Shown: positions 9,801 to 50,255 of the stretch, piece after piece | How positions within the stretch are numbered: the first letter of the stretch is position 1 | How the letters are laid out: each line of letters starts with the position of its first letter | Assembly (NCBI GenBank): GCA_043228905.1 | Contig: JBHGNT010000022.1 | Span: forward strand, 9,982,001-10,046,000 | Source of the DNA: Azolla caroliniana | Lineage: Eukaryota > Plantae > Polypodiophyta | Length of the DNA: 64,000 nucleotides | Reading direction: 5' to 3' | Program-made: the position numbers and the translations under genes | Notes under the pieces: model-generated | Seen by the model: only the letters and a program-made list of their open reading frames with translations | Databases searched by the model: none | What the model was told of the DNA's origin: nothing

Positions 9801-11900
9801 CGGACTTGGCCGAGATGTGCATTGATTGCTTGGAGGCTCTTGAGGTCCACTCAATCTGGTCGTAATTCGACTTTCTTTGATATTTGTCTTCTAAATCCTG
9901 GTCAACCAAGTGTGGGTCGACTAGGGTTAGAATCAGAGTTGTCTCTAGTTCATACCAGGATGTCGATTCGTCGAAGACGACATCACAACTTACTCGAACT
10001 TTTTGGTTAGATGGGCTATAATACTTGTACCCCTTTTGTTTGAGAGAGTACCGTACGAGGATACATTTCTCCGACTTGGGATCGAGCTTTTGTTGCTTCT
10101 TGTCGAGAATATGTACATAAACAATTGAGCCAAATATCCTGACGTAGGATAAGTTCAGCGTCTTTTCGAAGAACTTCTCGTGGGGAGTAACGTCGTGTAC
10201 CCCAGAGGTTGTACACCTATTCATGGGTGGAGGACTGTGTTAACCGCTTCTGCCCAGTATGACTTCAACAAGTTCTTTTGGTTCATCATTGCCCTTGCCA
10301 CCTCTACTATGTGTTGATTCTTTCGTTCGACAACTCCATTTTGTTGAGGTTTGTGTCAACAAGAGAATTCTCGTCGAATTCCTTCCTTTCAGAGATAAGC
10401 TGTGAATTCATCTAAGAAATACTCCTTCCCTCCATCTGATAGGACACATCGGACATGCTAACCTGTGGCTTTTTCAACTTCATTCTTAAATTTTTGGAAG
10501 TGTCTAAATAGTTCACTGTTTGGTCGCATAGTGTAGATCTAGTTGTGCTTGGAGAAGTGGTTGACGAATGTGACATAATATTGGCATCCACCAAACATGG
10601 TTGTCTGTGTTGGTTCCCATACATCAGAGTGGATTACGTCCAAGACTCCTTTGCTCACATTCCTCTCTATCGAGAATGGATGTCGATGTTTTTTGCCGAA
10701 TTGGCATGCCTCATCTATGCCAATGCTCTCTCTTTTTGTAAAATTCAGGAGTCTGATGACGAGTCCTTTCGATTGCATGTTCTGGAGGTTCTGGAGATTG
10801 ACGTGGCTGATTCTCTTCTGCAACAATTTCAAATTGGTGTTGACTTTAACGCCTTTTCCAAACATGGTTGACTTCACCTTGTTTGACTCAAGGATAAACA
10901 TTCGTCCTTCTGGTCGATCGTGAGCTATGAGTCGATTGTCTTTTACAATAAAACACCCTTCATTGTTGAACCACACTTGCATGCCTTGTTCTACTATCTG
11001 GCCGACTGAGACCAGATTTTTCGTGATGGTTAGGACATGCAAGATTTTCTTGAGGTACGTTTGTTTGCCGTCGTTCCCGAATGGGACATTTCCGATATGC
11101 CGAATTGGGCGAGTTGTGTGATCTCTGGTTTCCACATAGTCGTGTTGATCGGGCTTCCTCAACTCTCGGAACCAATCTTCATGAGATGTCATGTGATTGG
11201 ACGCTCCAGAGTTTACAAACCATACATTTTCGGAAGAGGTGATAGTCGAACCCTGTGTCGACATCGAGTGTGCTTTATGCCTCATTACAAACATTCCGCC
11301 ATGATCTTCATAATCGGAATTTGTGGCATAGTTCGTGAGTTGTTGGCTGGTCGAAGCCAATTCTCGTTTCTTCTTTCGACATTGTTCTTCAAAGTGGCCG
11401 AGTTTTCCAAAGTACTCGCATTTGATCGGGTGGTTTTGGTGACTTGGTCTGGCAGGATGGCCCCCCATGTACCGAACTCCCTTTTTGTGTTACTAGCCTA
11501 CTGCCAATGATGAGACTTGTGTTCTTGGGCCGACTGATTATGTCGACCTCTGTCCAACTAGGTCAAATCCTCTTCCCTCGTCCCACTAGGAGTAGAGCAT
11601 CTGGCCATCTGGTGCACCGCTCCTGGATCAGATATGTATTTCCTCGACCAACAATATTGACTAAAGGTCGAAAAATGAGGGAGGATTCTCCCTTGCAAGG
11701 ATGGCCGATCTGATTGTGTCGAATCATGGTGCCAAGCCACATAGGCATATTTGCACGATTTCATCATCGTCGGTGATGACATTGATCGATTTGAGGGCAT
11801 CACATAACTCCTTGATCTTCAAGATATAGTTGGTGATCAACATATCCCTTTGCTGAATATTGTTCAACTCTTGACGGAGCTGAAGCTTGCGTGCAACCGT
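6860..11900 (-). mobile_element. Degenerate Ty1/Copia element H (host of the 38-kb nest): gag C-terminus, PR, IN, RT, RH and a probable 3' LTR. Its gag N-terminus resumes at 50237-51270.
   Basis: Fragmented ORFs: VARKLQLRQELNNI, CEYFGKLGHFEEQC, WFVNSGASNHMT, IHSDVW, KLDPKSEKCILV, NRYKAQLVALGYAQ, LHQMDVKNSFLQG. A decayed LTR end and PPT (ctcaata|cgccccttc) lie near 7151. The left LTR boundary is uncertain. Confidence 0.85.
7329..8160. mobile_element. AT-rich non-autonomous DNA-transposon-like (MITE-like) insertion in the 3' region of Copia H
   Basis: Imperfect terminal inverted repeats CAAGGTTGTT...AACAACCATG, inverted subterminal blocks (tatagtacctc / gaggtactata) and many aaatacgt motifs. 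No clean TSD was found. Confidence 0.5.
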
Positions 11901-12240
11901 TGTCGTGTGGTTTTTCACACACGATATGAAAAATAGAAAAATAATTATTTAAGATTAGCTTAATGTATTGATATGGGAAGATAGATGTCTTCAAGAGCTT
12001 CATAACGTATTTACTACGCATAAAACGGATAAACAAGTATCAAGTTATGTGAGTGTGAAGTTTGAAGGAAAAAAAGAAAAGACAAAACTGAGAGATATCC
12101 CACATAGATAGGACAACATTGAAACCCTAGATATATAAGGGAAACCAAAACATATTCATTCTATCAATGTGTGGAGCATAGAATGTTCAAGGTGACTTGG
12201 GCCACACTGTGTAGTGTGGACGTTTTGGGCGTACGCACGT

Positions 12241-12953
12241 TGTCGTGAAGATTTTTGTCCACAAGCGGAAACCCGAGCAAAGAGAGCCAAAGAGCGATGT
12301 GCAACGTTGCACACGTACATAATGTATTTGTAATAGTAATAAGGGTAAATTGTATGGTGCTAGAAATGCCCCATAGGATCCCTAAGGTATAAAGGTGATG
12401 TGGTCTTGTGCGCACATCCACGCGAGAGAGAGAGAGAGGTACTATGCGGTACATAGGTACCTAGTTGTTTGTGTGGAGGTGGGAGTTAAGGGGCCATCAA
12501 TCTCACCCTCCCCAAATCAAGGCCAATATCCCCTTTGAAGGAAAGGGGATATTTTAGTCTCACTTTTGTAAATAGTCTTCCCTCCTTGTGCTATAAAAGG
12601 AGAGGGAAGGCACCATTGTGGGGGTTGCCTATTTTGAGTGTGAGAGGTATACCACATAGGTCGAGCATTACGGTTAGGGTTTCTTTATCTTTATCTTCAT
12701 CTTCGTCGGTTAGGGTTTCGAGTAGTCGTTTGGTGCGGCCTATGCGGCCACCATTTTGTAATCGTTCATTTCGTTTTAATATATCTTGTTGATCATCTTG
12801 TCTCCATCTTCCTCTTGTTCGATCTAATCTCTTGTTCATTCTTCTTCTTCTTGAGCAAAGCTTCATTCCATGTCCGATTCCTTCTCCTCTACTCCTTAGT
12901 CCAAGACCCCCGTGGTCCCGCCCTTCTCCACGCACGCGCGTAGCAACGCGACA
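12241..12953 (+). mobile_element. Solo LTR Y (713 bp) of the tRNA-Trp Gypsy group, inserted in the 5' LTR of X
   Basis: TGTCGTGAAG...CGCGACA ends, 4-bp TSD ACGT (12237-12240, 12954-12957), TATA-like ctataaaagg, and the shared U5 motif gacccccgtggtcccgcc. Confidence 0.88.
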
Positions 12954-14117
12954 ACGTATGCGTGGCCATGTGGATGCTTTAGGCGTATGCGAGTGTACAC
13001 GGCCGTGTGGACGTTTTCAGACGTACGTGTGTGTGCACGTTTTCGGACGGATGCGTGTGTGCGGACAACTGTGCGGATGCATACACAGTGCGGTCGGGAT
13101 GCGCGAATGCGTGGTTGGGATTTTTGCGCGCGGATGTGTCTACGGTTTAGTTGCGACGCACGTATGGATTGCGCACGGGCTAAACTTGTTATGTACACAT
13201 AACGTTGGTGAGGGTAGGTCACTAATATTTACATTAGTGAAGGGTATGTTCACTATTATTAAAAAGGGGACTAATGATTGGATAGAATGAATGATATGTG
13301 CATGCACTATCATGATTTAGACAACCAATGAATAGAGAGCCTTTTAGAAAGGCACATCTATTCAAGGGGCCTAGGAAAAGGTATAAATATGAGGCTTAGC
13401 TACCCTCATAGGGATTATCACGTCGGAAGGCTGCTGTCGTAGACACCGGTGGTGCGGGCTAGGCTTTCGTCTCGACGATCGTGTTTATCTCTTCCAAGGT
13501 ATTAGTCATCCTAATATCCGGCGGTATGGGACGTCGGTGGTAGGTTGGCTATGTCTAGATCATAGCTCGGGGGTGGTCGGGTGGAACGGGTTCTTCTATC
13601 CAATCTATTTTCTTCCTTTTTACTTGATTTGGTCTATTGATTAGTAATAGACTCTTAACAGTGGTATCAGAGCTTTTACTAACAATTTTTTTGTTGTTTT
13701 GATGTTTTTTGCGTGTGAGCGAGGGGGATCTAACAAGGCTCGTCATGCTCTTCTCAGGATCAAAACAACACTCTAAACCCGGTATTCTTCTTTGATCTCT
13801 TCTCTTTTTCTATTATGCGTTCTTTATGGTCGAATCAAATTGGTATTACGTTTTATTCTCTTTCTTTCTACCTCCTACTACGCTACGATTTTACTTATTA
13901 TTATGCATCGGGCCGAGCGTGTTTGCACTAATCGCACACGCTCAACTCATGGCCTTTTGCATATTGCGATATATATCCCACTCTCTCCTCTCTTGAACTC
14001 TTACGATAATAATTATTCTTGTGCATTGGGTCGAGCGTGTTTGCTCTAATCGCACACGCTTATCTCATGGCCGTTTTGCATATGATGTTGAGTATACCAC
14101 TCTTCCCCTCTACTGAG

Positions 14118-14600
14118 CCATCACTTGGCCGATTCTAAGGGATGATGTGGCCTTGACGAGGTGTATGTTGCCTACCTATGCCACTCTACTCTCTATTAAG
14201 CCATCAATTGGCCGATTCTATGGGATGTTGTGGCCTTGACAAGGTATATGTAGCTTACATATGCCACTTTCCTTTTTAATTAGCCATCAATTGGCCGATT
14301 CTAAGGGATGATGTGGCCTTGACGAGGTGTATGTTGCCTACCTATGCCACTCTACTCTCTATTAAGCCATCAATTGGCCGATTCTATGGGATGTTGTGGC
14401 CTTGACAAGGTATATGTAGCTTACATATGCCACTTTCCTTTTTAATTAGCCATCAATTGGCCGATTCTAAGGGATGATGTGGCCTTGACGAGGTATATGT
14501 CACTTACCTATGCCACTTTCCTCTTTAATTAGCCATTACTTGGCCGATTCTAGGGATATGTGGTGGTCTTGAGGAGGTGCATGTCAACTACCCTAGGGTT
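14118..14600 (+). repeat. 83-bp tandem array (about 6 units, A-B-A-B higher-order 166-bp dimer) in the 5' leader of chromovirus B
   Basis: Units starting ccatca.ttggccgattcta at 14118, 14201, 14284, 14367, 14450 and 14533. Confidence 0.9.
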
Positions 14601-15577
14601 TCGTATCTTAGGGCATGTTTGATTCCATACACCTAATTGTTGATTATTCTAATTAAATTTTAATTTCATAAGTATTGTTTCACTTATATGATTTTCTAGT
14701 AATTATTATTTACCCGCCCATAATTAACTCTCCTTTTTCCACTTCCTTTTCATGTATAAAGTATTTACATCGTTTATTTTTAATGTAACCTTTACGTGTA
14801 GACTATTTTTCGTATGGAGTGGCTTGTTGAACGATTTTTTTTTTCAACGGGTCATCTAGGTTTAACTCTTATCATCAAGCCTTAGAAAACGAGTAAAACC
14901 ATATGAGTTCCCTTATTGATGTTTTACTCATGGATTTGAGTATTACATCTTTGCGCACAACACCGTCATCACTTGTATCAATTTGTGGTTTATGTCACAA
15001 TTGTGCAAGTTATAACAATCATATTGGGATGTATATGTGCATACCTTGCACTTCCCATTTATTTGTGACATTGTTTTTTTCGTAGGTAACACATGGGTTC
15101 TTTTTTTTTACCCTTGTTTTCGTCACTACTTAACTCTTATGAGTAGTGCCTTATTTTATCATTTTATCATCACGTTTGCTTATTGCTCGCAAGACTAGAA
15201 TATTACTTGTGAGTGCACTTGTTTTTTCACGTAATACACTTTCTCGACCATATAATACATGATGGGTTGGCATTAATATAAGGCTATCTAGGAAATTTCA
15301 TTGATGTAAGAACCATGGTTGAGCCTCGGGGAGCCGCCATGATTACTCAAGATAGAGATCCGAGAAATACATCTTAGCTATGTTTTCCCCCATGGTTTTT
15401 AAAACACCATAGTGTTACCATAGTTATCGGATCTCGAATCACATCTCATATGTCTAGAGGGGTAAAGACATGAGATACTTTCTTGGATAAAGTTCTTTCA
15501 ATCAAAATTTCAAGCATTCATTTTGCTTGGGTATTTTCTGAACCTCCTTATTTTATTGCATACCCACAGCGTGCATC

Positions 15578-18500
15578 ATGGAACAAGTTTTGAACGCAGT
15601 TGGAACGATCTCTCCAAATGAGACCTCTCAACCCCAATCCGCATCTCGCACACAAGCTGAGATCACTATTGAGCAATTGCTCACTACTACCTTGAATCAA
15701 TTGGCCGAAATGAGACAGACCAATATGGCATTGGAAAAGAAATTCCAAGAATTAACTATTGAGTCCAAGAAAGAAGGTGAACCTTCCTTCGTAGTCACGC
15801 CTTTCAAGGGAGATAAGAAAGAAAGAACCGAGGAGGCTATTAGCACTTGGCTTGGTCGTTGGGAGTCTCACTTTGAGCTTCATCCCAAGCCCGATGCAGT
15901 AAAAATTGGTTATGTCGATCGTGAATTAGGTGGCCGAGCTGCTGCTTGGTGGCGTGGCCTAAGGACCGCAAAAAACTTACCCACAACTTGGGAAGGTTTT
16001 GTTGATGTTTTTAAACAATTCTTGCAGCCACCTTCTCAAACCGAACAAGCGCAACACTTGCTCACATTGTCTAGTAAGCCATTTACCTCTCTCGAGGATT
16101 ATGTGCATCACGCTCGGACCCAGATCCAAAAATCGGGACTTACGGGTGAGAAATGGTTTGTCGCTTGTTTTTTGAATGGTATTCCCAATGGGGATTATCA
16201 TTGGATTGTCCATGACAAGGACCCCACAACTTTCGAGGAAGCCGTCAACATTGTGCTGCGATACCATAGGACTTCCAAGAAAGACCACAATAAACCTGAG
16301 TTCGCCAAAACTCCGAATGTCAAGTTCATTGGGAAACGTAAGCAATCCAGTGACACTCTTGACCGCGACTCAAAGAAACCGAACCTCTTCTGTGCATATT
16401 GCAAGAAGCGGGGCCACACAAAGGATACCTGTTGTCGTCTTGAGAGGAAGTCAATGAACACCCCTCCTCAAGACAAATCTACGAGTCACACAGGTGAGTC
16501 TTTTGATATTGTTGAAGTTCATACCGATCACTTAAGTTTATGTGAATGCACTTTTCCTTCACATTTACTTGGACCTAATGATTTACTCCGAGCAGTCGGA
16601 TATATCAATGGAACACAAGCACATTTCTTGTTTGATTCCGGTAGTTCTCACAATTTTCTTAATAATCACTTTGTGCAGCAAATGGAGCTCCACATAAACG
16701 CAAGTGATCATATCTATCAAGTTCACATGGCAAATGGAAACGTTCAATACATCAGTGGCATTGTTTGTCAACTGCCAATTCAAATAGATACTTATTTGGA
16801 GAAGCTTGACTTTCATGTTATGAAATTACAATCCGCAGATGTCATTTTAGGATATCCTTGGTTTTTTAATAAAAACCCTTCTTTGTCCATTGATTGGGTT
16901 GATCACTCAATCACATTTGAACTTAATAATTGTAAACATTTTATTCAATGTTCCAAACTTCCTTCTCATTCACTTGTGTCTTCTAAATCATTAAGTGAGT
17001 ATTCTAGTTCATTAATTTATTCGTGTGTAATTGATCCTGCGGTTCAATTTTATTATTTTAATATTGACGCCACACAATTACCACATTTTGAGCAACGATT
17101 ACTCGACTCTATTTTAGAGGATTTTCAAGATGTGTTTCCTACTGAATTACCGCTTACTTTACCACCTAAACGTAATGTGGACCATCAAATTGAACTCATC
17201 CCTGGGGCTGCTCCTGTGAGCATTCCACCTTACCGACTTAGTCGATTAGAAGAGGATGAGATCGCTAAACAACTTAAGGAATACTTGAGTATGGGCCACA
17301 TTAGGTATAGTAAATCACCTTGGGGTGCGTCAGTTCTATTAGTCAAGAAGAAGGAAGGTTCGTGGCGAATGTGTATCAATTATCGCCGTTTGAATAAAAT
17401 GACAATTAAGAATGCATATCCATTACCTCGTGCCGATGATTTGATTGATCGTTTGCACGGGGCTCGATATTTTACGAAAATTGACTTACGAACTGGTTAT
17501 CATCAGATTCGCATCGCCGAGGATGATATTCCTAAAACCGTTTTTCGTACGCGCTATGGCCATTATGAGTTTTTAGTCATGCCATTTGGGTTGACTAATG
17601 CTCCAGCCACATTCCAACAAGAATGAATGATGTTTTCCGAGATCAACTCGGTGATTTTGTTGTCGTCTTCTTGGATGATATTTTGATATATAGCCGTACC
17701 TTGCAAGATCATGTTCAACATGTTCGATTTGTTTTGCGAAAGTTGCGTGACAACTCTTTCTATGCAAAACATTCAAAATGTGACTTCTTCCAAAAATCTA
17801 TTGTGTACCTAGGTCATTTAATTACAGAAAATGGCGTTGAAATTGAACCTTCTCGTATTGAAAAGGTTAAACTTTGGCCCATTCCTCGTAATATTCGTGA
17901 ACTTAGATCATTCTTAGGGTTTGTTGGATTTTTACGAAAATCAATTCGTAACTATTCCAAATTGACTACGCCATTAACTGACCTTTTAAAAGGTCATCCA
18001 CGTAAGTCTGTCAAACCAATTTCATGGAATGAACAACTTGACAAATCATTTGAGACACTCAAGGAGCATGTGTGTCAGGCTCCCACTCTTCTATTACCAG
18101 ACCCTTCTAAGCCTTTCTCAATTGAAACCGATGCTAGTGATTATGCTATTGGTGCCGTTCTTTATCAAGGCGGTCACCCTATTGCTTTTGAAAGTAAGAC
18201 GCTTGATGCTGCTCAATCTCGGTATTCGGTTCAAGAGAAAGAGTTGTTTGCGGTGATACACGCACTTAAAACATGGAGGCACTATCTCTATGGAAATAAA
18301 TTTGTGGTTACAACAGACCATCAATCATTAAAGTATTTTTGTGACCAGCCCGATCTTGTTGGTCGTAAAGGCCGTTGGGCTGACCTTATGCAAGATTTTG
18401 ATTTTTCCATACGATATCGCAAGGGTTCTATGAACACCGTTGCTGATGCTCTTAGTCGCATTAAAGAAGTTAACATGCTTAGCTTCACGGAAATAAAATC

Positions 18501-19977
18501 TGATCTTTTAGATCACCTTCGAGGGAAATACCTTGATGACAGTTATTTCTCAAAATACTGGACGAAAGCCGAATCTGGTTTAGATGCCGATACTAGCACC
18601 CTACCCTCGAAGGCGACCTTTCACATTACAAACGGTTTGCTCTACCGTAGTGGAAAGGTCTGTGTTCCAGATTTACCAAATGTTAAACAGAAAATTTTTC
18701 ATGAATGTCATGATGCACCATCTGCTGGTCATCCTGGAATACAACGCACACTCGTTCTCATCTCATGTACTTTTTTCTGGCCTAAGATGCGCTCTGACAT
18801 GCATAAATACGTAACTCAATGCTTACAATGTCAGATTAATAAGTCGGAACGACTTAAAGCTGCTGGTCTTTTACATCCCTTAGATATTCCCAACAATAAA
18901 TGGGAAAGTATCTCGATGGATTTTATTGTTAGTTTACCTCGTACACAGAGGGGTCATGATGCCATATGGGTTGTCGTTGACAAGCTAACAAAATTAGCTA
19001 GATTTATTCCTACAAAAACCACGGTAACCGCTCAACAGTTGGCTTATCAATTTGTTGATGAGTTATTTCGTTTTTATGGATTACCGATGGATATTGTTAG
19101 TGATCGAGATTCCAAGTTTACTAGTGACTTTTGGACTCAGGTCTTTAAGAAACTAGAAACTACGTTGAGCATGAGTTCCGCAGATCATCCTCAGTCTGAT
19201 GGACAAACTGAACGAGTTAATCAAATTATTGAGGACATGCTTCGAGCTTATGTAGCAAAAACCCCTTCTAAGTGGGAGCAATACCTTCCTATCTTAGAAT
19301 TTGCCTATAATAGCTCTAAACATACATCCACTGGATATAGTCCTTTTATGTTGATGTATGGTTTTCAGCCACGTGCCCCAGTTGATGTCACGATTCATCG
19401 TGATACATTAGACAGTACACGCAATTTTTTGCAAGACATGAACCAAATGTTGCATATTGCCAAAGAAAATGTCAAGATAGCTCAAGATCGTGCTCGATTT
19501 TATGCTGATCAGGATAGACGTCCTCGTGCATTTACTATTGGTCAAAAAGTTTTTTTGCGTGTCCCGACTGATTCTACGTCATTATCTACGGGCAAGTGCG
19601 CTAAGTTAGCCCCACGATATTGTGGCCCATTTGAAATCCTTAAGCGAGTTGGGTCATCTGCTTATCACCTTGCCTTACCTCGTAACGTTGGTATTCATCC
19701 TGTTTTTCACGTCAGTCGTCTAAAACCATTTTTAGGCTCTGGTGATAACACCATCACAATCCAAGATCTTGTAACATTAGAGGATTTTTCTTACAAACCT
19801 CATGTTCCTGAACGAATTCTTGATTCTCGTACTAAACGTTTACGTTCTAAAGAGATTCGGCTATTCAAGATCAAATGGATGGATAAACCTATTGATGATG
19901 CCACATGGGAACGCGAGCATTCGCTTAAGGCACAATTTCCTCACTTTATATTGCAAGAGTGCAATCTTTTGAAGTAG
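15578..19977 (+). CDS. Gag-Pol polyprotein of chromovirus B (gag, CCHC, PR, RT, RH, IN, chromodomain), broken by a single 1-bp frameshift near 17620
   Basis: [14 protein letters not shown]; [10 protein letters not shown]; [13 protein letters not shown]|MNDVF...VFLDDIL; [13 protein letters not shown]; [11 protein letters not shown]; GPF motif; C-terminal PERILDSR...IKW...DATWE. Confidence 0.93.
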
Positions 19978-20463
19978 GGGAGTATGTTATGTACACATAA
20001 CGTTGGTGAGGGTAGGTCACTAATATTTACATTAGTGAAGGGTATGTTCACTATTATTAAAAAGGGGACTAATGATTGGATAGAATGAATGATATGTGCA
20101 TGCACTATCATGATTTAGACAACCAATGAATAGAGAGCCTTTTAGAAAGGCACATCTATTCAAGGGGCCTAGGAAAAGGTATAAATATGAGGCTTAGCTA
20201 CCCTCATAGGGATCATCACGTCGGAAGGCTGCTGTCGTAGACACCGGTGGTGCGGGCTAGGCTTTCGTCTCGACGATCGTGTTTATCTCTTCCAAGGTAT
20301 TAGTCATCCTAATATCCGGCGGTATGGGACGTCGGTGGTAGGTTGGCTATGTCTAGATCATAGCTCGGGGGTGGTCGGGTGGAACGGGTTCTTCTATCCA
20401 ATCTATTTTCTTCCTTTTTACTTGATTTGGTCTATTGATTAGTAATAGACTCTTAACAAAACT

Positions 20464-20671
20464 ACACAGTGCGGTCGGGACGCGCGGATGCGTGGTTGGG
20501 ATTTTTGCGTGCGGACGCGTCTACGGTTTAGTTGCGACGCACGTATGGATTGCGCACGGGCTAAACTACACAGTGCGGTCGGGACGCGCGGATGCGTGGT
20601 TGGGATTTTTGCGCGTGGACGCGTCTACGGTTTAGTTGCGACGCACGTATGGATTGCGCACGGGCTAAACT
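20464..20671 (+). repeat. 104-bp tandem repeat within LTR X (a third copy at 13083-13186 is separated by element B)
   Basis: acacagtgcggtcggga...gcgcacgggctaaact at 13083, 20464 and 20568. A 21-bp atgcaactaaaagt repeat follows at ~20716-20800. Confidence 0.9.
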
Positions 20672-21251
20672 TTATGGATCATTGGGTCATTTGGCCGAAT
20701 TATACGGACGGTCGCATGCAACTAAAAGCCAAGGCCATGCAACTAAAAGTAAAAGGCATGCAACTAAAAGTAGAGGCCATGCAGCTAAAAGTGAGATGCA
20801 AAGTAACATTGGGAAGGGGGATCAACAAAGAGCTCGATATATGTTCCATTTTTTCCCTCTATATTTTTTTTCTTTTCTACTTCTCTCTCCCATTCCTTAG
20901 GGAAGAAATCTCTCTCATATTGATATCAGACCACTCCTTATATGGTTGTTGGCTCCTTCCTTTCAAGAATAATCTCTCTTATTCATATCGGACCACTCCT
21001 TACAAGGTTGTTGCCTACTTTCTTTTTTAAGAATGATCCGTCATTTTCATCTCGAACCCGTTTTAACAAGATTCTTGAATTATAAAAGAATCTATTTTCT
21101 TATGCAATAAACTAACATTTTCTCTCATCTACTCGTCTTATATGTGAATTGCTTGTGTTGTACGTGTTGCACTAAATCCTTCCAGTCCATAACCTCGGTG
21201 GTTCCGCCTCACGATCCGCACATAGTGACGGATTTTCACGACATAATTAAC

Positions 21252-21269
21252 TGGTGAACCCGACGTGAA
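21252..21269 (+). promoter_or_regulatory. Primer-binding site of X, complementary to the tRNA-Trp 3' end
   Basis: TGGTGAACCCGACGTGAA is the reverse complement of the plant tRNA-Trp(CCA) 3' end as recalled (TTCACGTCGGGTTCACCA). It is identical at 28684-28701(-), 29753-29770 and 37933-37950. Confidence 0.88.
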
Positions 21270-21292
21270 ACGAGGAGGTAGGAGGATATCTC

Positions 21293-22480
21293 ATGGAGGC
21301 ATATAGATACAAAGAGCCGAAGCAATGTAACCTATACAAGTTCGACCAATGGGTATCATCAGTAAAGACCCACCAAAGTGCCATGCATGCTTTCGTTGAG
21401 TTCGAGTGTCGCTTTGCACAACTCTCGAAGCGGGATCAAAGATTGGTGGGGGTGGAAAAAGTCCTAATGTTTGTGAAGTCAATCGATTGGAAGGAAAGAA
21501 AGGCCATTGGAATCCGACTTGAGGATGATGATGGTGCAAATGGCCTCACTGAGGATTGGACAAAAGTGGAAAGAGTATGTCAACTACAAGATAAGAGGAA
21601 GACAAGATTCTCATCGACAACAACACAACCCACGGCGGATGGTGAAAGGAGGATAGGAAGCAACAACAAACTACCACCTAAAGAAGAGAGCTTGAAGAGG
21701 GAAGGTTCGATGGTACTCGACATAGAGGCCTTCATAAACGAGGCATATGAGAATTTAAAGGTGCAAGTCAAGGCCAAAGAGAATCTTATAATGGAACCAA
21801 AACCAATTAAAATGGTTATCAAGGAAGAAGAGACCTCCCAACAAAGGTGGAGTAATGATACGGCCAATACGAAGGCCCAAGTTCGGTACAACAACACCAC
21901 GGAAGAAGGTGTGGAACAAGACACCTTCTCGTCTTGCAAAGAAACAATGGCGAAGAATGAAACAAATGAATCGAGGGTGGCGAATGCCACTTCAAGCGAA
22001 GACAAATGTTTCAAAACACACATTGTATCTAAAACATCAAGTGATGAAGTGGCAAGCATGAGCAAAGATTGCATGATCAAGGGAAATAAAAAGTGTGAGG
22101 CCAACGTGATTGAGGAGATAGCCATGAAATATGACATCGAGTTAGAGGTGGCTATGGACGAGTCAATGGTGGATGGCTATGTCAAGACTTTTTCCACACT
22201 TGTTCCAAAGACTTGGACAGATGCGTCAGAAAGCAAACGTGAGACCCAAGAGACGGAAGGTGGCGGCGAGGAAGTGAAGGCCGAAGCTAACACATGCGAA
22301 GAAGAGGGAGACGTCAAAATGAAGAGGGTAGACGACGATGATGAAGAGACTTTCCCCACAAAAGTTCTTGAGACTTGGGCATTAACCAATGTAAGACCCA
22401 AGAGACAGAAGGTGGTGGTGAAGAAGCAAAGATCAAAGCCAATGCGAACAACCATAAGGCGGAAGTGGCTAGAAAGATAA
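21293..22480 (+). CDS. Gag capsid-like domain fused to an acidic low-complexity tail (element X), 3'-truncated by a deletion
   Basis: 395-aa ORF. FVEFECRFAQL...KVLMFVKSID...GLTEDWTKVERVC aligns with gag of G (LREFEENFARL...RVLLFVKSVD...GLTTDWAAVKKVC). The ORF runs into LTR C sequence at ~22471. Confidence 0.75.
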   Translation: MEAYRYKEPKQCNLYKFDQWVSSVKTHQSAMHAFVEFECRFAQLSKRDQRLVGVEKVLMFVKSIDWKERKAIGIRLEDDDGANGLTEDWTKVERVCQLQDKRKTRFSSTTTQPTADGERRIGSNNKLPPKEESLKREGSMVLDIEAFINEAYENLKVQVKAKENLIMEPKPIKMVIKEEETSQQRWSNDTANTKAQVRYNNTTEEGVEQDTFSSCKETMAKNETNESRVANATSSEDKCFKTHIVSKTSSDEVASMSKDCMIKGNKKCEANVIEEIAMKYDIELEVAMDESMVDGYVKTFSTLVPKTWTDASESKRETQETEGGGEEVKAEANTCEEEGDVKMKRVDDDDEETFPTKVLETWALTNVRPKRQKVVVKKQRSKPMRTTIRRKWLER

Positions 22481-28660: not shown

Positions 28661-28986
28661 TCTTCCGACACCTTTGCCGCTTGTTCACGTCGGGTTCACC
28701 AATTATGTCGCGAAGTTTCACGCATGCGTGTAGGAAGAGGCAGGACCACGGGGGTCTTGGACCAAGGAGAGACTGAGAGAGACTGAGAGAGTTGCGGACA
28801 CACAGAAAGAAAATAAGAGCAAGAAACAGGAATCCGATTACTTAATCAGTAGCTTACAACTCGAACAGTTACAACCGGCAAACCGGTACTGGACCTGACA
28901 CAGGGTCCTACTCACGCACACGGACGAGAGCCACTCGACTCAAAGAAATAGAAAAAATGGGGAGAGCCTCTACTATCAACACATAG

Positions 28987-37972: not shown

Positions 37973-40099
37973 ATGAGGGGGTCGGATCTTGCAGAGGCCA
38001 TGGCTTCGGCCGTGGATCGGATTGTAAACGCGCGCGAGGGCACCGGTGCCCTCGACAGAGCTATTGAGGCGGTTGTCGGCACGATCGGCCGGTTCGATGG
38101 GAGGGATGCCACGAAGTATCTGGCGTCCTACGGTGCAGAAATGTTGATGCGGGACATTCCGGAAGAAAGGCGTCTTGCCGGATTTCCCCGAGTGGCAATG
38201 CCGAGCATCCATGCGGAGGTGCTCGTGGTGCGGGCGGAGAGCCGTACCTGGGAGGAGTTCGAAGGTCGGCTCCTAGAGAAATACGGGCTGGACGACGCGC
38301 TCCGGGTTTCGAAGCGAAGGTTCATGGAATGGGTGGAGTCCCCGGGGAAGGGAAGAAACGCGTCGGTACTCCTCCGGGAGTTCGAGGAAAACTTTGCGCG
38401 CCTTTCGGCGCTCGACCGAACCATCCTGGACACGAGCCGGGTCTTGCTGTTTGTCAAGTCGGTCGACGAGCGGGATCGGGAGCAAGTGGGCCTCTTGCTG
38501 GAAACCGAAGACGGGCTCACTACCGACTGGGCGGCTGTCAAGAAAGTCTGTGGCCGTTTCGACAAACGGCGAGAATGGGCGGATAACGGGGTAACCGGGT
38601 CGGGCTCGGTCGCAGCAAGGAAGTTCGAACCAGCGCCACAGGTGGGAAAGGAAGAGACCGGAGAGTGGTTGGAAACCGGTTCGGCTTCGACCGGCGTAGT
38701 CAGAGGCTCAACCGGAGGAGCGGCGCTGGAGGAATTGACGAGGGCGGTAAAGGACCTCCAAATCGCGCAAGCCCGAAGGGAAGGTGGCGAACCGGCTCGT
38801 GACCGACGGCCGGCGGCAGGAAACAGGTGCATGTGGTGCGATGAAGTCGGCCACATTCGGAAGGACTGCGGCGACTTCGCGGAGGCGCTAAGGGACAGGG
38901 TGGTGTACCTGTGGGAAGGGCGGGTGCATGCCAGCGACACCCGAAGGGCCCTGAGCCGAAACGACGGGTGAGGTGGTATGAAAAGGTTGATGGAAGAGGC
39001 GGCGGCCCGACACGCGGAAACCGTCCACTACTCGGCGTCGGCCGGCATTCGAGTCGGGGGCGGCGAGGCCCGAAGGGAAAGCAAAGCCGGATTCTGGCCG
39101 ACGATGCTGGGAGGCCTTGCCGGAGCAAGGCTTAAAGGGGAGGAATCGGACCGCGCGGAGAAACGGGTACGGGAGATAACCGGGTGGAGCGACCCGGTCG
39201 AGGAAAGGACGGGCTTCGTGGAAGCCGCTTGCCAGAACTACGAGGCTCTGGTAGAAGAGAAGCGGGTGGGGAAACCCGGGACGACCGGGCCCTCACAACG
39301 ATACGAGACCCGGTCCGGGCCACGACGGGACGAAGCCGGCGGGGCCGGTACGAAAGATAAACCCCAGAAGGGCGGGTACCGTCTGGGGACGGAGATAGAA
39401 AGGACCACGGACTTACGAAAGGTCCTGGAGGAACGGATCCTCGACAGCAAGGTGGAGCTGTCGTTACGAGAGGTGCTGGGAATCGCCAAGAAGGAGTTCC
39501 ACGACTCCATCGTGGACTTGGTGAAACGGAAGAGGCTGTCAACGGAGACAGAACCGGAAAGACCAGTGGAAGTGCGGACGACGCACCTAGACGACATGGC
39601 GCTGGGAGACGAGTGGGCGGAAAGCCACTACTCGAGACCACACTGGGCCCGAGCGACCACGGAAACCCCGGTGAAGATCGGCGATGTCCAGGAACCGGTG
39701 ATAGCTTTGGTGGACCACGGATCGGAGATCAACTTGATGTCCATGGACTTCTATAAGAAGGGCAAATGGCCGATCAACACCAAGCACGGGTGGAAAATAA
39801 GGGCGGCAACGCGCGCCACCGAGGAGCTGCACGGGGCCTGTCCGAATGTGCGAGTCAAGATCGGCGACGTCGAGATTGACCAGCACTTCTTCGTGCAGGA
39901 AACGTCTTCGCATCCGGTCATACTGGGAGAGCCGTACATCACGGCGGCGCGGATGGAGACCAAGGTGCTGGACAATGGTTCGGCCTACGCGAGGGTCAAA
40001 AGCCAAGACGGGCGCCATTCGGTCCAGTTTCTGACGGTACGGCCGAACCACGAACGTAACCGCGACTCCCTCGATTCCGAAAACCGAGAGGATTTTTAG
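37973..40099 (+). CDS. ORF1 of G: Gag (capsid, CCHC knuckle) plus aspartic protease, with one in-frame TGA at 38969-38971
   Basis: ORFs 37946-38971 and 38978-40099 are in the same frame. CMWCDEVGHIRKDC; ALVDHGSEINLM...VILGEPYI. The equivalent codon in C is sense. Confidence 0.88.
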
Positions 40100-43000
40100 A
40101 GAGGACTGCCAAGGCGTGGGGCCGCGACAGTCCGGATGCTCCGGGAAAACCCCACATCTGTACGATAAAACCGTGTACAATAGGTAGGAAATTTTGCTTC
40201 TCCGACAGCGGAGCATGTACGATGGTCGGCATCGCCGGCCGAGAGAAAACAAAGACGGAGGGGAGACTTCGGGCGTGCGGAGTTCTCGGCCCTGACGAAG
40301 AAATCAACGGAGCCGTGGAGGCAGTCTCCTTCGACGACACCTTGGGAATGCTGGGGAGGGTAGTCGAAGAAGACCTTATCGAAGACCGGACGATACCGGT
40401 ATGTTCCGAAGAAATGTACGAAGTCATCGCGGACTTCGGTCGAGGGCTCGAGTCGGAACGGACGGCCCGAGTTAGCACCAAGTACAAGACTGTGGACCGG
40501 AAGGTGAGGCCAGTTGCGGCGCCCTTACCGGAGGGCAGCGAATCCCGGATCAAAGGGGTTGCGTTGGACCCCAGCTTACGAGATCCGGCCTGCATAGGAC
40601 ACACTTTCACCAACGAGACGCTCCGCGAGCTGAAGATCGGTGGGGGCGGGTTCCTACTGCCGGTGGAGGAAGACCGGTTTCGGAGGATGCTCGGAAGGCA
40701 CGGGAAAGCCTTCACATTCTCACCGGAGGAAATCGGGTGCGTAGACCCGACGATCGTAGAGCCGATGGTGATATTCACGGTACCGCATGTACCGTGGAAT
40801 CTCAAGCCAATTCCGGTTCCGAGAGCTCACATCCCGAAGTTGATGGAGCTGTTGAAGCAGAAAGTTGATATGGGCATTCTCGAGCCGTCGAGCGCCCCGT
40901 ACTCGAACCGGTGGTTTACCGTACCAAAGAAAAACGGATCATTGCGCTTCATTCAGGACCTGCAACCGGTCAATAGGGTGACCATTCGGAACGCAGGGAT
41001 CGGACCGACCATAGACGAGTTCGCGGAGGCCTTCGCCGGAAGGTCGATTTACTCGGTCGGTGATCTATATTCAGGGTACGACCAGTTCCAGCTAGCCGTG
41101 GAGAGCAGAGACATTACGACGATGCGAACTCCCCTCGGCCTAGTGCGGATGTGTACGCTGTCGCAAGGAGGGACCAACTCGGTGGCCCACATGGTGAATG
41201 CAATGAACAAGGTGCTGAGGGACTGCATCCCGGACATCACCATGCCGTTTCTAGACGACATCCCGATCAAGGGATGCCCGGTAGAAGAGAAGGACGAGAC
41301 GATCGGGCCGGACGGATGCCGGCGATTCGTGGTAATGCACATCGACGACTGCGAGAAGGTGCTGCAAAGGCTAGAGGATGCGAGGCTCACCTTCTCGGGG
41401 GAGAAGTCAGCCTTCGGGCAGTCGGAAATCATGGTGGTCGGACATTTATGTGGACCATATGGCCGGAGACCGTCTCCGGCAAAGATAGAAGCCATCTCCG
41501 CGATGAAGCCTGATTGCAGCTCGGTCACGGAAGTACGAAGATTCTTGGGGGCATGCGCCTTCTACCACATATGGATCCCGCATTACGCGCACGTCGCGGA
41601 GCCGCTGTACGGATTATTGAAGAAAGGGCGAAGATTCGAATGGCTAGACAAGCACACGGAGTCGGTCCGGAAGCTGAAGGAGGCTCTTTCGGCAGCACCG
41701 GCGCTCCGAAAGGCCGTCTACAGGGAGGGCACCCCAGTGTACATAACGGTTGACACGAGTCCGACCGGAATCGGGTGGGTCGTCAACCAAGAAGACGAGG
41801 ACGGCAATCGGTTTCCGATCCGATTCGGCGCGAAGGTCCTCAGCGAACGGCAGCGAGGATACGCCCAGGTTAAACGCGAACTCTGGGGTATCGTTTCGGC
41901 GGTGAAGGCCGACAAGGACTATCTGATCGGGACAGAGGTAATCATAGAGACGGATTGCATGCCGATTCTCGGCATGGTTTCCGGATGCGCGACGCCGGAC
42001 CTGGCAATGCTCAGGTGGATAGCGTACATCAAGTCCCTGGACCCGGAAATACGACACATTTCCGGGAAAGACAACGCCATGGCCGACATGCTTTCAAGGG
42101 CGAGATTCGATGACGAGGGCGGCATGGTTTCGGAGGACGAAGAGGTTGGCGTGGACTTCTTCGAGACTGCGTATGTAACAACCGACGGAACAAGCACTCC
42201 GGCGCTTAACGACTTCGACGCGAGCAAGTACGACGGGGAGTGGCTGCAGATCGGTGGGTTTTTGAAGACAATGACGCCCGATGCGTCATGGACGAAGGGC
42301 GAGGCCAACCGGATCCGGAAGAAAGCGTACCGGTTCTTTCTCCGGGATGGCTATCTATGGAAGCACCCGAAGAGGAGGGACGGCGCTCCGCTCCGGGTGG
42401 TGGCGATGAAGGAAGAACAGGAGGAGCTGCTGACGGCCTACCACGACAGCCCTTGGGCTGGACACCGTGGAACATGGGCTACGTTTGAGAAACTGAAGGG
42501 GAAGTATTGGTGGCCGGGGCAGTACCAGGACGTGCATCGGTTCGTGACAACTTGCGAGAGTTGTCAGATGCACTCCATAGTCCGACATCGGGACGAGCTT
42601 CACCCCACGTACCCTCCGACCATCCACTTCAAATGGATGATAGATCTGGTGACGATGCCAATGGGGGTAGGACAGATGCGGTACCTGGTCCTAGCGCGGG
42701 AGGATCTGACGAACCAGGTGGAAGGCCGGGCCCTTCCGAACAAAACGACCGCGGCCGTATGCCGGTTCCTAATTGAGGACGTGATATGCCGGTACGGGTG
42801 CGTCGGGAAGATCGTGGCTGACCGAGGGGAGTTGGACGCCGAAGAAGCCGCGGAGCTGTTCGACCGGCTGGGAGTCAAGCTCTCGCTCACCACTGCGTAC
42901 AATCCGGAGGCGAATGGAAAGGTGGAGCGCGGCCACGGACCGATCGTCAAGGCGTTGGTTCGGGCATGCGGAGGCCGAGTCGGTAACTGGCCGCGGCTGC

Positions 43001-43578
43001 TACCTTATGCTTTGTGGGCAGACCGGACCACGCACAGTTCGGTAACCGGGTACATGCCGACGGAGCTCATGTTCGGCCAGAAGCCGATCATGCCGATAGA
43101 ACGGACGATCTCCTCGTGGGCAACGGTCGATTGGAGGGACGAGATGAGCCGGGAGGAGTTGTTGGCCGCGCGCATACGACAGCTCGAGCGGAGACCGGAG
43201 GACGTGGAACTGGCTGCGGAGAAGCTCCGGGTGGCGAGGAAAAAGAACAAAGCCAGGTTCGACCGAACGCACCGGCTCCGACCGAAGAAAATCGAAGAAG
43301 GTGACTGGGTGCTCGTCTACGACAGCAGCCTCGACAACCAGCACCGAGCTACACGGAAGTTCGCACGAAGGTGGTTCGGGCCTTACGTGGTACGGAGCGC
43401 CAATGACAACGGGACATATCACCTGGCGGAACTCGACGGCACGAGTATGGCGATACCGGTTGCAGGGAAGCGGATCAAAGCGTTCAAGAAGCGACACGAC
43501 GACGAGCCAGACCCGGCTCTCCTGGTCAGCGGTGACGAACGATCCGAAAACGAGGAAGAACCGACGGGCGAGGAATGA
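40090..43578 (+). CDS. ORF2 of G: RT-RNase H-integrase in the -1 frame relative to ORF1
   Basis: Frame is open from the GGATTTT site at 40090. PFLDDIPIKG (RT), TVDTSPTGIGW (RH), HDSPWAGH...CESC, IDLV...ADRGE...VERGH (IN), WFGPY. No chromodomain. Confidence 0.93.
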   Translation, partial: GFLERTAKAWGRDSPDAPGKPHICTIKPCTIGRKFCFSDSGACTMVGIAGREKTKTEGRLRACGVLGPDEEINGAVEAVSFDDTLGMLGRVVEEDLIEDRTIPVCSEEMYEVIADFGRGLESERTARVSTKYKTVDRKVRPVAAPLPEGSESRIKGVALDPSLRDPACIGHTFTNETLRELKIGGGGFLLPVEEDRFRRMLGRHGKAFTFSPEEIGCVDPTIVEPMVIFTVPHVPWNLKPIPVPRAHIPKLMELLKQKVDMGILEPSSAPYSNRWFTVPKKNGSLRFIQDLQPVNRVTIRNAGIGPTIDEFAEAFAGRSIYSVGDLYSGYDQFQLAVESRDITTMRTPLGLVRMCTLSQGGTNSVAHMVNAMNKVLRDCIPDITMPFLDDIPIKGCPVEEKDETIGPDGCRRFVVMHIDDCEKVLQRLEDARLTFSGEKSAFGQSEIMVVGHLCGPYGRRPSPAKIEAISAMKPDCSSVTEVRRFLGACAFYHIWIPHYAHVAEPLYGLLKKGRRFEWLDKHTESVRKLKEALSAAPALRKAVYREGTPVYITVDTSPTGIGWVVNQEDEDGNRFPIRFGAKVLSERQRGYAQVKRELWGIVSAVKADKDYLIGTEVIIETDCMPILGMVSGCATPDLAMLRWIAYIKSLDPEIRHISGKDNAMADMLSRARFDDEGGMVSEDEEVGVDFFETAYVTTDGTSTPALNDFDASKYDGEWLQIGGFLKTMTPDASWTKGEANRIRKKAYRFFLRDGYLWKHPKRRDGAPLRVVAMKEEQEELLTAYHDSPWAGHRGTWATFEKLKGKYWWPGQYQDVHRFVTTCESCQMHSIVRHRDELHPTYPPTIHFKWMIDLVTMPMGVGQMRYLVLAREDLTNQVEGRALPNKTTAAVCRFLIEDVICRYGCVGKIVADRGELDAEEAAELFDRLGVKLSLTTAYNPEANGKVERGHGPIVKALVRACGGRVGNWPRLLPYALWADRTTHSSVTGYMPTELMFGQKPIMPIERTISSWATVDWRDEMSREELLAARIRQLERRPEDVELAAEKLRVARKKNKARFDRTHRLRPKKIEEGDWVLVYDSSLDNQHRATRKFARRWFGPYVVRSANDNGTYHLAELDGTSMAIPVAGKRIKAFKKRHDDEPDPALLVSGDERSENEEEPTGEE

Positions 43579-46261
43579 AGACGGGCCGGTTTTCTCCGTC
43601 CCAACCCTCTTGGCGCATACCGGAGGATGCGCGGTTAGGTGGGGGCGGATGTCGTGAAGAAAACCGTCCATAGGCGGAATCGGCAGACCAAGGCGTGGGA
43701 ACCGGTTCCTCACGCGCGCACGCTCCAAGTTGAACATAGAAGCGAGCTAGGAGGATAATCGGCAGGAACGGGCCCTAACACGAGTGGAGACAAAGACCGC
43801 GCGAACAGTCTTTTCGGTCGCGCGCGCGAGCTAAGGGACGGCACGAGTCGGCGGCGTAACTACGCGGATGCGTGAAGAACGGAGCGGATCCCTGTTCGAA
43901 AGGGACAGGGAATAAAGCTGACATGACGGCCTGCTCGTCGGCCTATATAAGGAGCAGGAAAGAGCTGTTGCGATCATCTCGGGCAGAGAGGACGAAGTGC
44001 TGTCGGACCGTTTCGGGACGCTTCTCTCTCTGTTTCCTTCCTTCTTGAGCTCCATAGCTTTCTGTGCAGGCTTCCGAGGAGGCTCGCGCTGTTTCGAGGA
44101 ACGCCCGAGTGCTTCCGGCAGCACCTCCGACCCGCTACCCCTTTGTGCGTCGAAGCGAACAGGCATCGGCATCTGTTCGCCGGCCTGTTCGGTTGCAACC
44201 AACCTGTGCCCCATCGAGGGTTGTAGTCGTGTTAGCCATTTTGTTAATATACATATTTAGTCATTCGCATATGTCTGTGTCGGTGTCTGTTCGCGTTCTC
44301 CGTGCTGAAGGGCCGTGTCCCTGTGTATCCCCGGTCCTGCGTAGCCGGTTCTCTCTCTTTCTCCTCCCTGCTTGCTCTTTGGTTCGAGACCCCCGCGGTC
44401 CCGCCTCGTTTTCACACGCACTTGCGTAATATCTCGACACCGCTTGTGCCACAAGTCGATGTCCAACTCGGTCTTTTGTCCCTTCGCGAACATTGCGGTG
44501 CCGCCGTCAGTGGAGTTGAGGATGAACATCCTCCCGTCTTTGCGCCCTTGCGCAATCACACGGCCTTCTTCCTCAATGAAGCACCCGAGGTGTGTAAACC
44601 GAACCTCCATCCCTTGGTCGACGATCTGTCCGACCGAGACCAAGTTTTTCGTGATTGTCGGAATGTGTAGCATGTTCATGAGTTTCCCTTTCTGCCCGAC
44701 ATGGTTAAGGGGAACTTCTCCGACATTCGCGATCGGATGTGAAGTGTCGTCTCCAGTTGCGACTACTCCAGGTTGTATCGGTTTTTCGAGGTACGAGAAC
44801 CACTCCTTATGGCTCGTCATGTGGTTTGACGTGCCGGAGTCTACATACCACACCTCGTCCGATCTCGGGGTGCTCTGTTTCATTGAGTTTGCTTCGTGTC
44901 TCGTCACGAAGGCAGACCCTTCTCCGGCTCTCCCGGAGTCTTCGGCGTAGTGCGATCGCTGCCGATTTCCCTTGTCGGTATGTCTGGAGCCGTTCCCGGA
45001 ACCAGTTCTCTCCGAATCGGCGCGCTTCTTCCAGCACTCACTTTCCCTGTGGCCTTTCTTACCACAGTACCAGCACTCCACGATGGACTTCCCTTGCCGG
45101 TTCTCATCGCTTCGACTCCCCCTGTTTCCGAGGGATCCGGAGTTGCTGTCGGCATCACTTCGGTGCCTTCTTCCCTGATCTCGTCAGCCGCCGACTCGCC
45201 TCGTCCTCCACATCCACAGGGCCTATCTACCTCCGTGTACAACATTCTGTTGTTGGCGTGCGTGCTTGTAGACGCACCCGCGTGGTTCTCCTCTACCAGG
45301 AGCATTTACTGTAAGTCAAAAAAGGACGGCGTATTCTCCCGGGTACACATAGCCGTTCGGAACGCTCTGAACTTCGACGCCAAACCTCTGAGACAGATCT
45401 GGACCATCTCGCTCTCCTCGATGTTCACCTCTATGGAGGCGAGGGAGTCACAGATATCCTTGATCTTGGAGGTATAGTCCGCCATCGACAAGTCGCGTTG
45501 TCGTAGGTTTCTCAACTCCTGTCGGAGCTGAAGCTTCCTGGCTGTGGTGCTTGAGGTGAAAATCTTCTTCAAATTTTCCCACGCACCCTTCGGCGTCTTT
45601 GCATCCCGAACATAGCTCAATAGTTGTTCGCCCACACACGACACGAAGCAGTATAATACCCTGCTCGCCGATTGCTCCCACGACGGGAAGTCTCTGTGTG
45701 TCGATTCGGGTGCCGCGTCATTAGCTCCTTCGACATAACTCCAGTAGCCGTGCCCGAGCAGGTACTGGTGCATCTTGTAGGACCAAGACGCGTAGTTGGT
45801 TTTGTCGAGCTTCTCTATTGGAAGCTAGCTCGCCATGCCTCTATCCATCGTTCTTCTTGTTCTTCTTCGTCAAGCTGTGTCGGCTGCAGAGAGGTTCTCA
45901 ACCCTCGCGCTCTGATACCATATGAAAAGTAGCGTGCGGAAGCAAGTATGAAGACCGAACAGAAGGAAGGAAACTCAGGTTTAATGGAGAGCTTGAGCTT
46001 ACACGGTATACGCGGGAGAGACTGAGAGACTGAGAGAGAACACAAGAACTATATTCAACAATAATACTCAGTCTGTACATAAGACGTGCTCAGTGAACAC
46101 TTTTATACAAGTCCTAGAAGGACTAACAATACTTCAATGCTCATCAAGAGCTCCTACACTAACTCCCAAATATATTCCTCACAGAATATCTTTCCTAAAG
46201 ACCTCCCGGTTTACGCACTCGGCCTAACCGATCGGTCCCAACCGATCCGGTCCTCGCCTTC

Positions 46262-48964: not shown

Positions 48965-48967
<3 letters not shown>

Positions 48968-49022
<55 letters not shown>
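48968..49022. repeat. (GA)n microsatellite
   Basis: About 27 GA units. Confidence 0.9.
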
Positions 49023-49025
<3 letters not shown>

Positions 49026-50255
49026 AAAGAGATAGAGAGAAATGTTCGTTCATTCATTCATTCATTCCCCATAAAGGGGTTAAATAATACAAGAGGGGGT
49101 AGATACAAAGGGGTGTAAGCCCCCTAGAGCATTCATATTGGACACTCACTCACATCTCATCGTATCCCTCCACATGCACACACGTGTGCATGTGTTCACA
49201 TACATATCGACTCACAATTACATTTATGTTCCCTACACATATACAACATCATCATGATAATATTCGACCCTCACTCATCACACTTGACTCTCCGTACAGC
49301 TCGTACGGGGTAACACAATAATCCCCTAATAAATGTGTACTACCTAGTATTTACATCAGCCGACCTAGTTATGAATCATGTATAAAATATCAGTTCTCGC
49401 GTCCACCGATGTAGAAGCCGGTTCATGCGCCTTTTTCTCCGATTCCGCCTATGGCCGGTTTTCTTCACAATAGCGTGTGTACGGACGAGCATGCGGATGC
49501 GTACACGGCGCAGTCGGGACGCGTGCGTGCGTGGATGCGTACACTGCACGGTCAGGACTTTTGCGCGCGGACGCGTCTACGGTTTGGTTGCGACGCACAT
49601 ACGGATTGCGCACGGGCTAAACTTTATGGATCATTGGATCATTTGGCCGAATTATATGGACGGTCACATGCAACTAAAAGCCAAGACCATGCAAGTAAAA
49701 CTAAAAGGCATTCAACTAAAAATGGAAGCATGCAACTAAAAGTAGAGGCCATGCAACTAAAAATAGAGGCCATGCAACTAAAAGTGGGCATGCAAAGTAA
49801 CATTGGGAAGGGGGATCAACAAATAGCTCGATATATGTTCCATTTTTTCCCTCTATTTTTTTTCTTTTTTGCTTCTCTCTCCCATTCCTTGGGAAAGAAA
49901 TCTCTCTCATATTGATATCAAACCACTCCTTACATGGTTGTTGACTCCTTCCTTTCAAGAATAATCTCTCTTATTGATATCGGACCACTCCTTACAAGGT
50001 TGTTGGCTCCTTTCTTTTTTAAGAATGATCTATCAGTTTCATCTCCAACCCATTGTAACAAGATTCTTGAATTATAAAAGAATCTATTTTCTTATGCAAT
50101 AAACTAACATTTTCTCTCATCTAGTCGTTCTTATATGTGAATTGCTTGTGTTGGACGTGTTGCACTAAATCCTTCCAGTCCAGAACCCCGATGGTTCCGC
50201 CTCACAATCCACACATAGTGACGGATTTTCACGACACCGTGTTGGCCGTGAAAAT

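What the first reader, a model, noticed from the sequence alone, without database searches (positions are those of the whole stretch)
11897..50240. Gypsy group whose 4-bp target sites are all centred on a CpG
Seen: five insertions of the TGTCGTG...CGACA / tRNA-Trp group. Three have complete 4-bp TSDs: CCGT (X), ACGT (Y) and CCGC (G). C has GCGT on its surviving side (49473-49476). D is preceded by ATAG (28983-28986), where the sister LTR of the host reads ACGG (~22650), i.e. a CpG decayed on both strands. All five fit N-CG-N. The other LTR elements with two-sided TSDs have 5-bp TSDs without CG (AAACT, AAAAT, GAAGT). Established: most plant LTR elements make 5-bp TSDs with weak sequence preference. 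Inference: this chromodomain-less integrase recognises CpG (possibly methyl-CpG) directly, which would steer insertions into silenced TE DNA. n=5 is small and the hosts are CpG-rich.
Basis: partly seen in the sequence, partly recalled or inferred. Interest (0 to 1): 0.8.

Follow-up and report, generated by a model that had tools for sequence, protein, structure and literature searches.

The report
Phygy-type retrotransposon inserting at CpG
A large family of plant jumping genes nearly always lands centred on a CG base pair step, likely because its own integrase reads that sequence, but this habit is already published for the moss Phygy lineage and any dependence on DNA methylation is untested.

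Summary
In the window X (CCGT), Y (ACGT) and G (CCGC) have exact 4-bp TSDs; C and D are one-sided and weak. Of 100 PBS-anchored copies on contig C1, 44 gave both ends: 31 have an exact 4-bp TSD, 0 a 5-bp TSD, and 31 of 31 have a central CG (local background 5%). Genome-wide, 5,083 of 6,925 outer LTR ends follow CGN (73%, background 2.7%). Neumann et al. 2019 already describe Phygy elements as 4-bp NCGN, tRNA-Trp primed, with no chromodomain or aRH. All of these features were met here; placement on a tree with Phygy could not be tested. Refinement from this work: the site is V-CG-B (T first 3.0%, A last 4.5%, against 34% background), which favours direct base readout. The integrase has ordinary NTD-core-SH3 domains and no methyl-CpG reader. 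CpG is itself concentrated in repeats (58-62% of sites against 30% of random positions), so a sequence preference alone biases insertion towards TE DNA. The further excess (84%) is regional, not site-specific. Methyl-dependence is untested.

The parts
11897..11900 (.). Left TSD of X (CCGT)
11901..21243 (+). X 5' LTR (TGTCGTGTGG...CACGACA), interrupted by solo LTR Y and by a chromodomain Gypsy (13187-20458, 5-bp TSD AAACT)
12237..12957 (+). Y solo LTR 12241-12953 with TSD ACGT at 12237-12240 and 12954-12957
21252..21269 (+). X primer-binding site, 18 nt complementary to tRNA-Trp; followed by a gag-like ORF 21269-22480, no pol remaining
22471..28986 (-). Element C: 3' LTR remnant about 22471-22989, frameshifted pol 23062-26561 (76-77% identical to G pol), gag, PBS 28684-28701, part of 5' LTR 28706-28986
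28983..33780 (+). Element D (pol-less, gag-like): ATAG 28983-28986, 5' LTR 28987-29748, PBS 29753-29770, PPT and truncated 3' LTR from 33270
37135..44443 (+). Element G 37139-44439: LTRs 37139-37928 and 43650-44439, PBS 37933-37950, gag/DUF4100/protease region 37919-40099 (one internal stop), TSD CCGC at 37135-37138 and 44440-44443
40060..43578 (+). G pol ORF, 1172 aa: RT, RNase H, integrase (H2C2 zinc finger, DDE core, SH3-like C-terminal domain); no chromodomain, no aRH
49320..49476 (-). Start of C's 5' LTR (decayed terminus 49466-49472) and surviving target side GCGT 49473-49476
49473..50240 (+). Remnant of X 3' LTR ending CACGACA at 50236, right TSD CCGT 50237-50240

Best explanation
These are tRNA-Trp-primed, chromodomain-less Ty3/Gypsy retrotransposons of the Phygy type that make 4-bp TSDs centred on CG, likely because their integrase reads the palindromic target V-CG-B directly. 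Shown: the TSD length, the CG centre, the avoidance of T at position 1 and A at position 4, and the absence of a recognisable reader domain. Inferred: the intasome cuts with a 4-bp stagger and bends the target at the central pyrimidine-purine step, as in foamy-virus and other retroviral intasomes; base contacts narrow that step to CG. Because CpG in this genome survives mostly inside TE DNA, this preference alone roughly doubles the chance of landing in a repeat. After insertion the duplicated CGs decay one at a time to TG or CA (probably by methyl-C deamination), which explains most exceptions.
For: 31 of 31 exact TSDs among 44 two-ended copies are NCGN; 0 of 44 have a 5-bp TSD; 44 of 44 have CG on at least one side; local CG frequency is 5.1%. 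Genome-wide, 5,083 of 6,925 non-PPT LTR starts follow CGN against 2.7% in 40 random windows. CA, TG and TA together give only 1,165, although they are about 8 times commoner than CG in the background, so plain YR flexibility is not enough. TCGN is 150 of 5,083 and NCGA 231 of 5,083 against 34% expected. CG at the ends falls from 42 of 44 (LTRs at least 99% identical) to 16 of 20 (under 97%), and 5 of the 8 non-CG ends are CA or TG. Two autonomous subfamilies (pol about 63% identical, separate branches) and the pol-less copies share the site. Relatives in metagenome contigs show NCG at 12 of 15 validated right ends. The AlphaFold model and Foldseek give PFV and Ty3 integrases, and Pfam finds no chromo, MBD or aRH domain. 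Precedents: Phygy NCGN; intrinsic CGCGCg binding by ZAM integrase (abstract); central YR step (abstract).
Against: No biochemistry: a host tether or cofactor could contribute. The structure model is moderate (pLDDT 75, pTM 0.51), so specificity residues were not assigned. Target flanks are more often repeats (37 of 44) than random V-CG-B sites (58%, window bootstrap 43-70%; P about 0.003), so something regional also acts (chromatin or selection). The less strictly validated left-end hits in metagenome loci gave only 10 of 24 CG. No Phygy reference sequence was available for a tree.
Confidence: 0.72

Rival explanations
1. The integrase prefers methylated CpG and so aims actively at silenced TE DNA.
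For: The strict CG centre is what a methyl-CpG preference would give. Targets are repeat-flanked in 37 of 44 (left) and 36 of 44 (right) cases against 58-62% for random V-CG-B sites. A 1992 paper title on CpG methylation affecting retroviral integration in vitro was seen in a reference list only (the paper was not held).
Against: CpG sites 700 bp or more downstream in the same loci are 81-89% repeat, so the excess is regional and fits TE islands or selection against genic insertions equally well. 6 of 44 targets had no repeat hit on either side, 3 of them with LTRs at least 99.7% identical (limited library). No methyl-binding domain was found. The V/B bias at the outer bases points to sequence readout.
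Confidence: 0.13
2. Sequence readout of V-CG-B is combined with a host chromatin tether that brings the intasome to heterochromatic regions.
For: Regional enrichment in repeat-dense loci beyond the CpG effect. A liverwort genome paper reports Phygy enriched in centromeric regions (passage).
Against: No tethering domain was seen: after the SH3-like domain there is only a short low-confidence acidic tail. Existing copies are filtered by selection, so regional bias need not come from targeting.
Confidence: 0.13
3. Chance from CpG-rich hosts, or mis-set LTR boundaries.
For: Y and C sit in a CpG-rich part of X's LTR (CG frequency 12-13% on one side).
Against: 31 of 31 against at most 9% local CG; boundaries were set from the PPT and PBS, not from the TSD; 73% genome-wide.
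Confidence: 0.01

Closest known systems
Phygy (non-chromovirus Ty3/Gypsy lineage of Physcomitrella patens; Neumann et al. 2019, PMC6317226)
   Same: 4-bp NCGN TSD, tRNA-Trp PBS, no chromodomain, no aRH, no extra ORF, polyprotein filling nearly the whole internal region.
   Different: Autonomous copies here are 6.6-7.7 kb, mostly 7.0-7.4, against 7.7-10.0 kb. The V-CG-B refinement and the many pol-less partners are not stated in the parts of that paper I could read. Whether these copies sit inside the Phygy clade was not testable.
TatI (OTA/Tat subclade; same paper)
   Same: 4-bp TSD, tRNA-Trp PBS.
   Different: TatI carries an aRH domain (100%) and is about 9 kb; no aRH was found here, and no NCGN preference is listed for TatI.
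ZAM/Tirant errantiviruses of Drosophila (Faye et al. 2008, PMC2527525; review PMC5408687)
   Same: Gypsy-group integrase with a CG-containing palindromic target; intrinsic integrase specificity shown in vitro.
   Different: ZAM target is CGCG(Cg), ends are AGT..., it has env, and it belongs to an insect lineage; here the duplication is N-CG-N with TG...CA ends.
Prototype foamy virus and Ty3 intasomes (Serrao et al. 2015, PMC4422553; PDB 3l2q, 7q5b)
   Same: Same integrase domain layout (best Foldseek hits); preference for a flexible YR step at the centre of the site.
   Different: Their sequence preference is weak; here it is close to strict for CG.

Membership tests
Phygy | 4-bp TSD | tested here: met
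   31 of 44 exact 4-bp, 41 of 44 within one mismatch, 0 exact 3-, 5- or 6-bp; definition
Phygy | NCGN target motif | tested here: met
   31 of 31; 5,083 of 6,925
Phygy | tRNA-Trp PBS | tested here: met
   18-nt match for X, C, D and G to the genome's tRNA-Trp(CCA); 3,120 LTR-PBS junctions
Phygy | Gypsy order RT-RH-INT with no chromodomain and no aRH | tested here: met
   Pfam scans of G's three ORFs and six relatives at E up to 0.1; model and Foldseek
Phygy | Short element, no extra ORF, coding region spans nearly all of the internal part | tested here: met
   pol ends 72-194 bp before the 3' LTR in all 23 pol-bearing copies
Phygy | Length 7.7-10.0 kb (descriptive range in P. patens) | tested here: inconclusive
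   6.6-7.7 kb here, but my 10-kb fetch windows could not pair elements longer than about 9-10 kb
Phygy | RT/RH/INT phylogeny within the Phygy clade (the formal criterion) | not testable with these tools
   REXdb fasta and per-element table too large to read; no P. patens protein among the 240 listed hits; my tree has no Phygy reference
TatI | aRH domain | tested here: not met
   no second RNase H family hit and no room for one after the integrase
Chromovirus | C-terminal chromodomain | tested here: not met
   none in G or its relatives, while the window's two chromoviral ORFs do hit PF00385

The most novel reading that the evidence does not exclude
The Phygy-type integrase core senses methyl-CpG at the centre of its target, a reader-less way of aiming retrotransposons at silenced DNA, shared across a lineage that reaches mosses, liverworts and ferns.
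Probability: 0.13. Interest if true: 0.75.

Novelty: new member of a known kind. Interest (0 to 1): 0.22.

Why it matters
The CG-centred 4-bp TSD is published for Phygy, so the headline is not new. What is added is modest. The site is V-CG-B rather than NCGN. The family is large (more than 3,000 PBS junctions) and young, with identical LTRs, so it offers a tractable sequence-specific LTR integrase. And CpG preference alone steers insertions into TE DNA because CpG survives mainly there. If methyl-dependence were shown, it would be a new heterochromatin-targeting route; I found no test of it in the searched literature.

Tried and rejected
Composition artefact: rejected. General YR flexibility instead of CG: rejected. 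TatI and chromovirus: rejected. A first TSD pass missed the TGTCGTAGTG subfamily through a too-narrow PPT pattern (30 pairs) and was redone (44 pairs). The right-end pattern search (165 hits) had no denominator and was not used. The Rfam scan of the PBS was uninformative; the first tRNA pattern found nothing, the second did. The ESM Atlas returned only generic Gypsy integrase clusters. Protein searches gave no P. patens reference. The Fisher tests treat clustered CpGs as independent and were replaced by a window bootstrap and a regional control. No sequencing reads or methylation data were examined.

Full report
Observation. Motif listing, self-BLAST and junction printouts confirm five insertions with TGTCGTG...CGACA ends. 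X spans 11901-50236 (TSD CCGT), Y is a solo LTR at 12241-12953 (ACGT) and G spans 37139-44439 (CCGC; LTRs 99.1% identical). C has a decayed terminus followed by GCGT and has lost its other end. D is preceded by ATAG where the sister LTR reads ACGG, in a locally diverged stretch, and its right end is lost. X's ends lie across an N gap and a deletion. The three other LTR elements with both ends have 5-bp TSDs AAACT, GAAGT and AAAAT. The PBSs of X, C, D and G match 18 nt of the genome's tRNA-Trp.

Genome-wide test. The 523-Mb genome holds 3,120 exact LTR-end plus PBS junctions. I fetched 10 kb around the first 100 listed, all on contig C1. Boundaries were set from the PBS and PPT, not from the TSD. 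44 of 100 gave both ends. The 56 dropped were: 45 with no 3' LTR within 8.4 kb, 5 with no 5' start found, 4 with no PPT-anchored start, 1 with an end not CA, and 1 whose second copy was another 5' LTR. Of the 44, 31 have an exact 4-bp TSD and none an exact 3-, 5- or 6-bp one. 31 of 31 have a central CG, 44 of 44 have CG on at least one side, and 80 of 88 ends read NCGN. Local CG frequency is 5.1% (highest site 9%); 40 random windows give 2.7%.

Whole-genome pattern counts for one terminus type agree. There are 10,370 LTR starts, of which 3,445 follow a PPT, leaving 6,925. Of these 5,083 (73%) follow CGN and 6,248 (90%) follow YRN. The 73% is probably low, since degenerate PPTs stay in the denominator. 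Among the 5,083, T at position 1 occurs 150 times and A at position 4 231 times, against 34% in background NCGN. The target is therefore V-CG-B. Exceptions increase with LTR divergence, and 5 of the 8 are CA or TG, as expected from decay after insertion. In metagenome contigs holding relatives (80 loci), 12 of 15 right ends validated against true LTR ends are followed by NCG; looser left-end motif hits gave 10 of 24.

What it is. G encodes gag/DUF4100/protease and an open 1172-aa pol with RT, RNase H and integrase. Pfam finds no chromodomain, aRH or methyl-binding family. The AlphaFold model (pLDDT 75, pTM 0.51) matches PFV and Ty3 integrases and ends in an SH3-like domain and a short disordered tail. 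Named relatives are from Riccia (up to about 65% identity) and Ceratopteris, so the host is likely a seed-free plant (inference). 23 of 44 paired copies carry pol, in two subfamilies about 63% identical that form separate branches; 21 lack pol. All use the same target.

Mechanism. The best reading is intrinsic readout by the integrase. Retroviral intasomes favour a flexible YR step at the centre of the site, most strongly with short TSDs (Serrao 2015, abstract). Here CA, TG and TA are not used in proportion to their abundance and the outer bases are biased too, which implies base-specific contacts. ZAM integrase is a precedent for intrinsic CG-site binding (Faye 2008, abstract). These steps are inferred, not shown.

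On steering. Random V-CG-B sites are repeat-flanked 58-62% of the time against 30% for random positions, so CpG preference alone favours TE DNA. Targets reach 37 of 44 and 36 of 44, above the window bootstrap (43-70%; P 0.003-0.007). But CpG sites 700 bp or more away in the same loci are 81-89% repeat. The excess is regional and cannot separate methyl sensing, a chromatin tether and selection. The repeat library was only the fetched DNA, and no methylation data were examined.

Comparison with what is known. Neumann et al. 2019 (PMC6317226; passages; Additional file 5 whole) write that Phygy elements are the exception among plant LTR elements, with an insertion preference for NCGN: 4 bp (100%), tRNA-Trp (81%), no extra domain. 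Every structural feature I could test is met. Length is somewhat shorter, and the formal phylogenetic test could not be run because the REXdb files were too large and no P. patens sequence appeared in the searches. TatI shares the 4-bp TSD and Trp primer but needs aRH, which is absent. Other papers were seen as passages only: PMC6911290 (Phygy 4-bp TSDs, nesting in Tcn1), PMC12885004 (Phygy in a liverwort, centromere-enriched), PMC5408687 (errantivirus targets), PMC7466625 (nothing on TSDs). Searches (listings only) showed no test of methyl-dependence for Phygy; most subscription journals are outside the library.

Verdict. Real and strongly supported, but a new member of a known kind. Interest 0.22. 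The open and testable remainder is methyl-CpG dependence, which I put at about 0.13.

Noticed in passing
L013, L026, L027, L062, L068 and others; window D 28987-33780 (X 21269-22480 also shows only a gag-like ORF, but its interior is deleted): 21 of 44 paired copies lack pol (3.2-5.7 kb; the youngest carry a long sense ORF), several with 100% identical LTRs and NCGN TSDs: recently mobilised non-autonomous partners.
   Followed up: partly
44 paired elements on C1: The elements themselves are CpG-rich (GC 54%, CpG O/E 1.17) against 0.68 in random windows; 11 of 44 targets lie in family members against about 12% of random V-CG-B sites, so the family supplies its own landing sites.
   Followed up: partly
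L026, L030: Insertions directly into the PBS of other LTR elements (one Trp-type, one Met-type), both of which contain an ACG site.
   Followed up: no
G000:C2:7902447-7908382: At least 19 matches of an LTR-end plus CCG motif at exact 329-bp spacing: a tandem array probably derived from an LTR junction.
   Followed up: no
G000:C8:17.80-17.82 Mb, C16:4.99-5.11 Mb, C5:10.11 Mb: Clusters of tRNA-Trp 3'-end matches, about 1.2-kb spacing on C8: possible tandem tRNA gene arrays.
   Followed up: no
window 46261-48259 and 48374-48473: A 273-bp, 99% inverted repeat around a chromodomain integrase fragment, next to a 100-N gap; possibly an assembly artefact. The missing ends of C and D map to this region.
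   Followed up: no
L176, L178, L179, L183, L184: Metagenome elements with X's terminus type (TGTCGTGTGG) carry pol (integrase 69-75% identical to G), so X likely belongs to a third subfamily not covered by my genome-wide counts.
   Followed up: partly
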